From assembly GCF_044324875.1 (NCBI RefSeq), contig NZ_CP172185.1: 64,000 bases of DNA; one strand, written 5' to 3'. This stretch comes from Escherichia coli (GTDB taxonomy: Bacteria; Pseudomonadota; Gammaproteobacteria; Enterobacterales; Enterobacteriaceae). The notes below the pieces were generated by a model. It saw only the letters and a list, made by a program, of their open reading frames with translations, was not told where the DNA came from and searched no databases. Positions within the stretch are counted from its first letter, which is position 1, and the number at the start of each line of letters is the position of its first letter. Made by a program: the position numbers and the translations under genes. Below, one piece after another: positions 51,241-51,432 of the stretch.

Positions 51241-51432
51241 GCTGTATAAGACGTTTACGCCGCATCTGGCATTCAGTGCAAATGCCAGATGCGACGCTGG
51301 TGCGTCTTATCTGGCCTACTTTGTTGTAATCCATTGAAATAATGGGAATCGTAGGCCGGATAAGGCGTTTACGCCGCATCCGGCATTCAGTGCAAATGCC
51401 AGATGCGACGCTGACGCGTCTTATCTGGCCTA
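51241..51432. repeat. REP/BIME cluster (two ~80-bp near-duplicate units) between convergent rcsC and rcsB
   Basis: Units at about 51241-51320 and 51349-51431 share ...gtttacgccgcatc(c/t)ggcattcagtgcaaatgccagatgcgacgctg(g/a)(t/c)gcgtcttatctggcctac. Confidence 0.75.

What the first reader, a model, noticed from the sequence alone, without database searches (positions are those of the whole stretch)
51241..51432. REP/BIME clusters mark four convergent gene junctions; some create spurious ORF extensions
Palindromic REP units occur at 20984-21094, 27861-27962, 51241-51432 and 63190-63312 (plus a weak one at 19525-19565), each between convergently or tandemly arranged genes. The rcsC/rcsB cluster is a near-duplicate of two ~80-bp units. 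They explain several small or extended ORFs in the six-frame track, for example the long N-terminal extension of nrdB, and should be masked before gene calling.
Basis: seen in the sequence. Interest (0 to 1): 0.15.

Follow-up and report, generated by a model that had tools for sequence, protein, structure and literature searches.

The report
Ordinary E. coli REP/BIME-2 repeats
The flagged sequences are the well-known short palindromic "REP" repeats that E. coli scatters behind its genes; the cluster between rcsC and rcsB is a two-unit array whose unit number (one to about four) varies between strains, and nothing about it is new.

Summary
The window is E. coli chromosome, the reverse of K-12 2,303,724-2,364,688.

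All units are Y or Z2 type, arranged in alternating orientation, which is the BIME-2 arrangement. There is no Z1 unit and no IHF site, so none is a BIME-1.

The rcsC/rcsB cluster consists of two Y-S-Z2 units:
- It is a 98-nt direct repeat, 91% identical, with a 114-bp period.
- The repeat starts 19 nt inside rcsC, and the rcsC TAG stop is part of the REP's GTAG.
- Both units pass Rfam's naRNA4 (REP325-type) threshold.
- Across 5,426 complete E. coli genomes the array varies: 82% carry the inter-unit junction, meaning at least two units. One-unit and three-unit alleles were read directly.

Four sites lie between convergent genes. One (nrdA-nrdB) lies inside an operon.

REPs do create spurious ORFs. 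The mechanical nrdB ORF is 403 aa against the true 376 aa.

The most likely role is as 3'-UTR hairpins that block exonucleases and partly terminate transcription. That role is inferred from the literature, not tested here. The feature is already known and of low interest.

The parts
19527..19562 (-). Site E: single Z2-type REP between the convergent genes inaA (stop 19519-19521) and yfaE (stop 19575-19577). It lies 5 nt and 12 nt from the two stops.
   Evidence: nhmmer E=1.3e-8. The RNA hairpin folds with z -4.2 and -5.7. ORFs. K-12 map.
20981..21015 (-). Site A, unit A1: degenerate Y-type REP with the CTAC tail lost. It carries the last four codons and the stop of yoaM (20958-20993, + strand).
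   Evidence: nhmmer E=1.3e-7. Alignment to K-12. yoaM annotation.
21016..21051 (+). Site A, unit A2: Z2-type REP. A T>A variant (GCGTCATATC) supplies the minus-strand ATG at 21038-21040 that extends the mechanical nrdB ORF by 27 codons.
21062..21095 (-). Site A, unit A3: Y-type REP, 9 nt downstream of the nrdA stop (21105-21107) on the nrdAB transcript.
   Evidence: nhmmer E=2.1e-9. ORF. The nrdAB REP is the published example of a REP that dampens translation (PMC12306157, citing Liang et al. 2015).
27861..27894 (+). Site B, unit B1: Y-type REP, 22 nt after the yfaL stop (27836-27838).
27905..27941 (-). Site B, unit B2: Z2-type REP, tail-to-tail with B1 across a 10-nt linker. The ubiG stop is at 27978-27980.
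   Evidence: Fold z -5.0 and -5.5.
27952..27959 (+). Site B: truncated REP head (GCCGGATG) only.
   Evidence: Read directly from the sequence.
51222..51319 (+). Site C, direct-repeat copy 1. It consists of the last 19 nt of rcsC including the stop, then Y (51237-51270, reverse), then the 13-nt S linker ATTCAGTGCAAAT (51271-51283), then Z2 (51284-51319, forward). The rcsC TAG (51238-51240) lies inside the REP's GTAG.
   Evidence: Rfam naRNA4 scores 64.3 bits at 51240-51316, above the gathering score of 59.5.
51320..51335 (+). Site C: 16-nt locus-specific spacer TTTGTTGTAATCCATT between the two repeat copies. It is absent from one-unit alleles.
   Evidence: The junction occurs only at this locus, 1-3 times per genome.
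51336..51433 (+). Site C, direct-repeat copy 2. It consists of a degenerate copy of the rcsC 3' end (GAAATAATGGGAATC), then Y (51351-51384, reverse), then the S linker, then Z2 (51398-51433, forward). It ends 6 nt before the rcsB stop (51440-51442).
   Evidence: Rfam naRNA4 scores 84.3 bits on the + strand and 62.9 bits on the - strand at 51354-51430.
63189..63221 (.). Site D: perfect 14-bp hairpin made of a REP head and its inverted copy (GCCACATCCGGCA TGG TATGCCGGATGTGGC). It starts 5 nt after the mqo stop (63181-63183) and is conserved in K-12.
   Evidence: Fold.
63222..63255 (-). Site D, unit D2: Z2-type REP with a degenerate tail (ATAC).
   Evidence: nhmmer E=3.7e-8 at 63226-63255.
63276..63309 (+). 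Site D, unit D3: Y-type REP, 23 nt before the eco stop (63333-63335). K-12 has six tandem copies of this Z2-Y unit where this strain has one.

Best explanation
These are canonical E. coli repetitive extragenic palindromes (REP, also called palindromic units) of the Y and Z2 types. They are arranged as BIME-2 mosaics in the 3' untranslated regions of nine genes.

Shown here:
- The sequence family, the unit types and the alternating orientation.
- The extragenic, 3'-end placement.
- Strong predicted hairpins on both strands.
- Membership of the rcsC/rcsB units in the REP325/naRNA4 sequence-structure family.
- Strain-to-strain variation in the number of tandem units.

Inferred from published work on other REPs:
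- When transcribed as the tail of the flanking mRNAs, the hairpins probably block 3'->5' exonucleases and act as partial, largely Rho-dependent terminators. Between convergent genes they would do so in both directions.
- Those lying 15 nt or less from a stop codon (rcsC, rcsB, nrdA, inaA, yfaE) may also dampen translation of the upstream gene by stalling terminating ribosomes.
- The arrays probably grow and shrink by unequal recombination or slippage between tandem units. This would explain why the inter-unit spacers are copies of the adjacent unique flank: the rcsC 3' end here and the eco 3' flank in K-12.

The confidence given (0.9) is for the whole statement. Identity as REP/BIME-2 is near certain. 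The specific functional roles at these loci are about 0.6.
For: Identity:
- Twelve units align into a Y consensus (GCCGGATGCGGCGT-RAAC-GCCTTATCCGGCCTAC, 34 nt) and a Z2 consensus (GCCTGATGCGACGCTGRCGCGTCTTATCWGGCCTAC, 36-37 nt). These match the published definitions (PMC3333891).
- The motifs are enriched over shuffles.
- The external Rfam naRNA4/REP325 model hits all five sites, two of them above the gathering score.
- The query matches hundreds of thousands of places across 5,425 E. coli genomes.

Placement:
- Four sites are between convergent genes and one is between tandem genes.
- This fits the published distribution of about 60% convergent, 40% tandem and 1% divergent (bioRxiv 10.64898/2026.03.23.713779).

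Structure:
- Every site folds far better than shuffles in both orientations, with z from -4.2 to -14.
- There is no U-tract terminator signal above chance.

Array dynamics:
- At rcsC-rcsB the intergenic region is 85 bp in Nissle and ETEC6333, 199 bp in the window and K-12, and 313 bp in strain c1-17. The steps are exactly 114 bp.
- The inter-unit junction is present in 4,436 of 5,426 genomes, up to three times, and always at this locus only.
- The two one-unit alleles examined differ from each other, and each looks like a hybrid of unit 1 and unit 2.
- K-12 has 5 palindromic units at nrdA-nrdB against 3 here.
- K-12 has 6 units at mqo-eco against 1 here. Its spacers match the eco flank at 19 of 23 positions.
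- Variable tandem BIME-2 copy number between strains is already published (PMC3333891).

Function:
- REP325 acts as a stabiliser of the upstream mRNA and as a partly Rho-dependent terminator (10.64898/2026.03.23.713779).
- REPs fewer than 16 nt from a stop codon lower translation, and nrdAB is the worked example (PMC12306157).
Against: - No expression, RNA-end or protein-binding data for this strain were available, so every functional statement is by analogy with other REPs.
- The literature itself reports context-dependent and sometimes absent effects. Genes ending in REPs do not have longer mRNA half-lives genome-wide.
- Three of the 12 units (A1, A3, D2) have lost the CTAC/GTAG tetranucleotide that RayT needs, so they are probably immobile relics.
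- rayT was found in only 3,574 of 5,426 complete E. coli genomes. Its presence in the source strain of this window was not established.
Confidence: 0.9

Rival explanations
1. The rcsC/rcsB units are genes for a naRNA4-like nucleoid-associated non-coding RNA that, together with HU, bridges DNA cruciforms and condenses the chromosome.
For: Both units score above the Rfam RF02564 gathering threshold of 59.5 bits, at 84.3 and 64.3 bits. Each is a 77-nt Y-linker-Z2 unit, exactly like a REP325 repeat (PMC4550694).
Against: - The Rfam model is in effect a model of any Y-S-Z2 BIME-2 unit. The other sites in the window also hit it, below threshold.
- A 2026 re-examination found that deleting or overexpressing REP325 or naRNA4 does not change nucleoid size, that no stable HU-cruciform DNA-naRNA4 complex forms, and that REP-REP contacts are not enriched in Hi-C (10.64898/2026.03.23.713779).
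- No promoter-like site was found in the intergenic region.
Confidence: 0.07
2. They are ordinary bidirectional intrinsic (Rho-independent) terminators that only look repetitive.
For: They sit at gene ends and form strong GC-rich hairpins on both strands. Published work places 78 REPs inside predicted bidirectional terminators.
Against: - No U-tract follows the hairpins. The terminator scan finds one weak site against 0.5 expected by chance.
- The sequences belong to a conserved family dispersed across the genome, which independent terminators would not be.
Confidence: 0.03
3. Some of the small ORFs running through the REPs encode real peptides. Examples are 51129-51329 (66 aa), 51218-51379 (53 aa, - strand), 51342-51443 (33 aa) and 63183-63641 (152 aa).
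For: They are open reading frames with start codons. One annotated 11-aa gene, yoaM, does end inside a REP.
Against: - None has a Pfam family.
- Their sequence is simply translated REP consensus, and they change or disappear with unit number between strains.
- They overlap the ends of well-established genes on the same or the opposite strand.
Confidence: 0.02
4. The palindromes and the duplication arose by chance or are a purely local duplication, unrelated to any repeat family.
For: The inter-unit spacer at rcsC/rcsB is locus-specific.
Against: None of 100 shuffles reaches the observed motif counts. The same units occur at five sites in the window and at a median of 29 places per genome for the rcsC/rcsB query.
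Confidence: 0.005

Closest known systems
E. coli BIME-2 (bacterial interspersed mosaic element type 2: alternating Y and Z2 REPs; Bachellier, Gilson and Hofnung classification, summarised in PMC3333891)
   Same: - Y and Z2 units in inverted orientation.
- A short head-to-head linker, 13 nt at rcsC/rcsB.
- Tandem repetition of the pair.
- Well-conserved copies within a locus, and a copy number that varies between strains.
- Extragenic position at gene 3' ends.
   Different: Nothing essential. Two points of detail: the first REP overlaps the rcsC stop codon by 4 nt, and the inter-unit spacer is a locus-specific sequence that includes a degenerate copy of the last 15 nt of rcsC. Site E is a lone Z2 unit rather than a BIME.
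REP325 / naRNA4 (Rfam RF02564; yjdM-yjdN intergenic array of K-12)
   Same: - The 77-nt Y-linker-Z2 unit passes the family's gathering score.
- Units are separated by a constant spacer.
- The array lies in a 3' UTR.
   Different: - Two units here against six in REP325.
- This array lies between convergent genes, whereas REP325 lies inside an operon.
- The linker and spacer sequences differ.
- The proposed nucleoid role of naRNA4 is itself now disputed.
nrdA-nrdB intergenic REP of K-12 (model for REP-mediated translational down-regulation, Liang, Rudd and Deutscher 2015, as cited in PMC12306157)
   Same: Site A is the same locus. The first REP lies 9 nt after the nrdA stop, within the published 15-nt limit.
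   Different: This strain has 3 palindromic units where K-12 has 5.
REPINs (REP doublets forming hairpins; Bertels and Rainey, Pseudomonas) - named from my own knowledge
   Same: Two inverted REPs form one long hairpin. Each rcsC/rcsB unit folds as an ~83-nt hairpin on the minus strand. REPINs are also associated with a RAYT transposase.
   Different: The species-specific consensus differs. The E. coli pairs combine two distinct unit types (Y and Z2) and are amplified in tandem locally.

Membership tests
REP / palindromic unit (E. coli type) | An imperfect palindrome of about 35 nt that matches the Y, Z1 or Z2 consensus | tested here: met
   Twelve units align to the Y (34 nt) or Z2 (36-37 nt) consensus. 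An external Rfam model built from K-12 REP325 hits all five sites.
REP / palindromic unit (E. coli type) | A conserved GTAG/CTAC tetranucleotide at the foot of the hairpin, required for RayT binding | tested here: met
   Intact in 9 of 12 units (E, A2, B1, B2, C1-C4, D3). Degenerate in A1 (ATTA), A3 (ATAC) and D2 (ATAC).
REP / palindromic unit (E. coli type) | A conserved mismatch (bulge) in the stem | tested here: met
   GATGCG pairs opposite CTTATC, giving an internal 2x2 mismatch. This is visible in the sequences and in the predicted folds. The second Z2 unit of K-12 and the single Z2 unit of Nissle at rcsC/rcsB have lost the mismatch (GATAAGAC), but the window's units keep it.
REP / palindromic unit (E. 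coli type) | Extragenic location, typically in a 3' UTR | tested here: met
   All five sites lie between stop codons, or between a stop and the next start in the operon. There are two minor overlaps: REP C1 includes the rcsC TAG, and REP A1 includes the last four codons and the stop of the 11-aa gene yoaM.
REP / palindromic unit (E. coli type) | High copy number, dispersed around the genome | tested here: met
   The 1.1-kb rcsC/rcsB query matches 161,603 places in 5,425 genomes, with a median of 29 per genome. This is capped at 40 pieces per record.
BIME-2 | Y and Z2 units alternating in inverted orientation with a short linker | tested here: met
   Site A is Y<-, Z2->, Y<-. Site B is Y->, Z2<-. 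Site C is (Y<-, 13 nt, Z2->) twice. Site D is Z2<-, 20 nt, Y->.
BIME-2 | Tandem copies whose number varies between strains | tested here: met
   rcsC/rcsB has 1, 2 or 3 units, with up to 3 junctions per genome. nrdA-nrdB has 3 palindromic units here against 5 in K-12. mqo-eco has 1 unit here against 6 in K-12.
BIME-2 | Binding and cleavage by DNA gyrase | not testable with these tools
   This needs in vivo quinolone-induced cleavage mapping or gyrase ChIP.
BIME-1 (RIP/RIB) | A Z1 unit plus a Y unit separated by a long L linker carrying an IHF site | tested here: not met
   There is no short Z1-type unit among the 12. The IHF consensus WATCAANNNNTTR does not occur in any of the five sites.
naRNA4 (Rfam RF02564) | A score at or above the curated gathering threshold of 59.5 bits | tested here: met
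   51354-51430 scores 84.3 bits and 51240-51316 scores 64.3 bits. Sites A, B, D and E score 28.9-51.6 bits, below the threshold.
naRNA4 (Rfam RF02564) | A processed ~77-nt RNA that binds HU | not testable with these tools
   No transcript or binding data are available. The functional claim for the founding member is disputed.
Intrinsic terminator | A GC-rich hairpin immediately followed by a U-tract | tested here: not met
   In 51000-51700 the scan finds one weak terminator-like site against 0.5 expected, and it has no real T-run.
RayT-mobilised REP system (REPtron) | A rayT (tnpA-REP) gene in the same genome | not testable with these tools
   rayT is not in the window. In K-12 it lies about 2 Mb away. 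It is present in 3,574 of 5,426 complete E. coli genomes. The source strain was not checked.

The most novel reading that the evidence does not exclude
The number of Y-S-Z2 units between rcsC and rcsB ranges from one to about four across E. coli, and one-unit alleles appear to have been regenerated more than once by recombination. This number could act as a strain-specific dial on the Rcs envelope-stress phosphorelay. It would change the stability and termination of both convergent mRNAs and, because the first REP overlaps the rcsC stop codon, the translation of RcsC. If so, the RcsC:RcsB ratio would shift without any coding change.
Probability: 0.15. Interest if true: 0.3.

Novelty: already known. 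Interest (0 to 1): 0.06.

Why it matters
For annotation it matters in a routine way. REP arrays create false ORFs and false N-terminal extensions, here 27 extra codons on nrdB and several ORFs of 33-152 aa, so they should be recognised before gene calls are accepted. Hard masking is not safe, though. It would delete the rcsC stop codon and the end of the tiny gene yoaM.

Biologically the sites are textbook examples of a known element class. The only mildly useful by-product is a population figure. At the rcsC/rcsB locus, 82% of 5,426 complete E. coli genomes carry at least two units, about 18% lack the inter-unit junction (consistent with a single unit), and a few carry three or four. The array changes in exact 114-bp steps.

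Tried and rejected
None was found beyond the five sites.
- I looked for BIME-1 features (a Z1 unit, an IHF site). They are absent.
- I looked for promoters and intrinsic terminators in the rcsC/rcsB spacer. Nothing was above chance.
- I tested whether the 31-nt inter-unit sequence is a generic BIME motif reused elsewhere. It is not: it occurs only at this locus. The first megablast search with a 43-nt query undercounted, finding 229 genomes, because K-12-type spacers differ by several bases. The blastn search corrected this to 4,436.
- I tested the REP-derived ORFs against Pfam and found no families.
- I tried to read Liang, Rudd and Deutscher 2015 directly. It is not held, so it is cited through PMC12306157.
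- RefSeq K-12 feature tables returned by the tool list no REP features, so REP numbers such as those in EcoCyc could not be assigned.
- I did not scan other species (genome contigs) to date the duplication. The cost was not justified for a known element.

Full report
**Where the window comes from.** Megablast against K-12 MG1655 places the window on the E. coli chromosome, in reverse orientation, covering K-12 2,364,688 down to 2,303,724. The closest complete genome at the rcsC/rcsB locus is strain 118UI, at 99.8% identity. The K-12 annotation and the ORF lists give this gene order in the window...glpQ, a 3.8-kb segment missing from K-12, inaA, yfaE, nrdB, nrdA, ypaB, yfaL, ubiG, gyrA..., atoS, rcsC (+), rcsB (-), rcsD (-), micF, ompC..., mqo (+), eco (-).

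**Checking the observation.** The sequence at each reported coordinate shows the familiar E. coli REP motif GCC(G/T)GATGCG(G/A)CG...CTTATC(C/A)GGCCTAC.
- I extracted 12 candidate units, aligned them, built an HMM and scanned the whole window with filters off.
- The 12 units score E=1e-7 to 1e-10. Nothing else scores better than E=0.01 except opposite-strand echoes of the same palindromes.
- That profile is circular for the units themselves, so two independent tests were used.
- First, consensus motifs written from the literature are enriched: 26 matches against 8.2 +/- 3.1 in shuffles, and 17 against 6.1 +/- 2.4, with no shuffle reaching the observed count.
- Second, Rfam's naRNA4 model, built from the K-12 REP325 array, hits all five sites at E<1 and the two rcsC/rcsB units above its gathering score.
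- The 1.1-kb query around rcsC/rcsB matches a median of 29 places per genome in 5,425 of 5,426 E. coli genomes. That is the signature of a dispersed repeat.

**Anatomy of the units.** The units fall into two types.
- The Y type is 34 nt: GCCGGATGCGGCGT(A/G)AACGCCTTATCCGGCCTAC.
- The Z2 type is 36-37 nt: GCCTGATGCGACGCTG(G/A)CGCGTCTTATC(A/T)GGCCTAC.
- Both match the published classes (PMC3333891).

| Site | Position | Flanking genes | Arrangement |
|---|---|---|---|
| E | 19527-19562 | inaA / yfaE | a lone Z2 |
| A | 20981-21095 | nrdA -> nrdB | Y<-, Z2->, Y<- |
| B | 27861-27941 | yfaL / ubiG | Y->, Z2<-, plus a truncated head at 27952-27959 |
| C | 51237-51433 | rcsC / rcsB | (Y<-, 13-nt linker, Z2->) twice |
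| D | 63189-63309 | mqo / eco | a perfect half-unit hairpin, then Z2<-, 20 nt, Y-> |

- Alternating Y and Z2 units with short linkers define BIME-2.
- No Z1 unit and no IHF consensus is present, so none of the sites is a BIME-1.
- Nine of the 12 units keep the CTAC/GTAG foot, and all keep the stem mismatch. In vitro, RayT needs both features.

**The rcsC/rcsB cluster.**
- The direct repeat is 98 nt, at 51222-51319 and 51336-51433. It is identical at 89 of 98 positions and has a 114-bp period.
- It begins 19 nt inside rcsC. The last codons cgg-gaa-tcg-TAG run into the REP foot GTAGGC, so the stop codon is part of the REP.
- The 31 nt between the two unit cores consist of a 16-nt sequence found nowhere else, followed by a degenerate copy (GAAATAATGGGAATC) of the rcsC 3' end (GAAATCGCGGGAATC).
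- Alleles differ by exact multiples of 114 bp. The intergenic region is 85 bp in Nissle and ETEC6333, 199 bp in K-12 and the window, and 313 bp in strain c1-17.
- A blastn search with the inter-unit junction finds it in 4,436 of 5,426 genomes (82%), once in most and up to three times. It is always on the chromosome and only at this locus.
- The window's exact spacer variant is in 228 genomes.
- The two one-unit alleles examined differ from each other. Each looks like the left part of unit 1 joined to the right part of unit 2. I read this as recurrent deletion by recombination between the repeats, which is an inference.

**The same pattern at other loci.**
- K-12 has six 113-bp units between mqo and eco where the window has one. 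The K-12 spacers copy the 23-nt eco flank at 19 of 23 positions.
- K-12 has five palindromic units between nrdA and nrdB against three here.
- Strain-variable tandem BIME-2 number is already documented (PMC3333891).

**Structure and signals.**
- Each site folds much better than shuffled controls on both strands, with z from -4.2 to -14.
- On the minus strand, each rcsC/rcsB unit forms one ~83-nt hairpin of Y paired with Z2.
- There is no U-tract terminator or promoter signal above chance.

**Distances from stop codon to first REP.**

| Gene | Distance |
|---|---|
| rcsC | overlapping |
| inaA | 5 nt |
| mqo | 5 nt (to the half-unit hairpin) |
| rcsB | 6 nt |
| nrdA | 9 nt |
| yfaE | 12 nt |
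| yfaL | 22 nt |
| eco | 23 nt |
| ubiG | 36 nt |

**How it most likely works (inferred from the literature).**
- REPs are 3'-UTR elements. About 60% lie between convergent genes and about 40% between tandem genes, and about 30% of convergent junctions carry one (10.64898/2026.03.23.713779).
- In this window, by my count, four of seven convergent junctions carry one.
- The best-studied array, REP325, stabilises the upstream mRNA and acts as a partly Rho-dependent terminator. Its earlier proposed role in nucleoid condensation through naRNA4 and HU (PMC4550694) was not reproduced.
- REPs fewer than 16 nt from a stop codon lower translation, and the nrdAB REP is the worked example (PMC12306157).
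- I therefore expect site A to behave as published.
- I expect the rcsC/rcsB array to act as a two-way exonuclease block and partial terminator.
- I also expect possible translational damping of rcsC and rcsB. None of this was testable here.

**ORF artefacts.**
- The mechanical nrdB ORF (19829-21040, 403 aa) starts at an ATG inside REP A2. The true start gives 376 aa.
- That ATG exists only because of a T>A change in this strain's REP.
- Other REP-borne ORFs have no Pfam family: 51129-51329, 51206-51337, 51218-51379 (-), 51342-51443, 21014-21214, 27866-28033, 27620-27949 (-) and 63183-63641.
- Masking is sensible but should be soft. The rcsC stop and the end of the annotated 11-aa gene yoaM (20958-20993) lie inside REPs.

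**Verdict.** The elements are long-known E. coli REP/BIME-2 repeats. Novelty: already known. Interest is low.

Noticed in passing
window 14846-18684: A 3.8-kb segment absent from K-12, lying between glpQ and inaA. It holds three ORFs: an intact LysR-type regulator (16570-17448, - strand) whose last 67 aa correspond to the K-12 yfaH pseudogene remnant; an MFS transporter (17600-18790, + strand); and a 368-aa ORF (15034-16140, - strand) with no NCBIfam match.
   Followed up: partly
window 20958-20993 (+): The annotated 11-aa small gene yoaM ([11 protein letters not shown] in this strain). It overlaps the nrdB start codon on the opposite strand and takes its last four codons and its stop from REP A1.
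   Followed up: partly
window 63184-63332; L001 1395-2108 (K-12): The mqo-eco intergenic region is 149 bp here and 714 bp in K-12. K-12 carries six tandem 113-bp Z2-Y units where this strain has one. The K-12 spacers are copies of the 23-nt eco 3' flank.
   Followed up: partly
window 20960-21104; L002 12152-12384 (K-12): The nrdA-nrdB intergenic region has 3 palindromic units here and 5 in K-12, a difference of one Z2-Y pair.
   Followed up: yes
window 55091-55184 (-): The MicF small RNA gene, upstream of ompC. It gives a full-length Rfam match of 116.8 bits.
   Followed up: no
window 49194-49648 (-): A sub-threshold match (123 bits against a gathering score of 246) to Rfam Rev24, an antisense RNA described in soft-rot Enterobacteriaceae. 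It lies antisense inside rcsC and probably reflects conservation of the rcsC coding sequence.
   Followed up: no
window 6745-7129: Overlapping and duplicated megablast segments relative to K-12 around rpnE/ypaA. They suggest a small local rearrangement or repeat.
   Followed up: no
L007 2138-2635 (K-12 rayT): The REP-associated transposase gene rayT is detectable in only 3,574 of 5,426 complete E. coli genomes, although REPs are present in essentially all of them.
   Followed up: partly
L001 13829-14027 (K-12) and L003 642-726 (Nissle): In K-12 (second unit) and Nissle (single unit), the Z2 REP at rcsC/rcsB reads GCCAGATAAGAC... instead of GATGCGAC. This removes the conserved stem mismatch that RayT requires. 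The window's units keep the mismatch.
   Followed up: no
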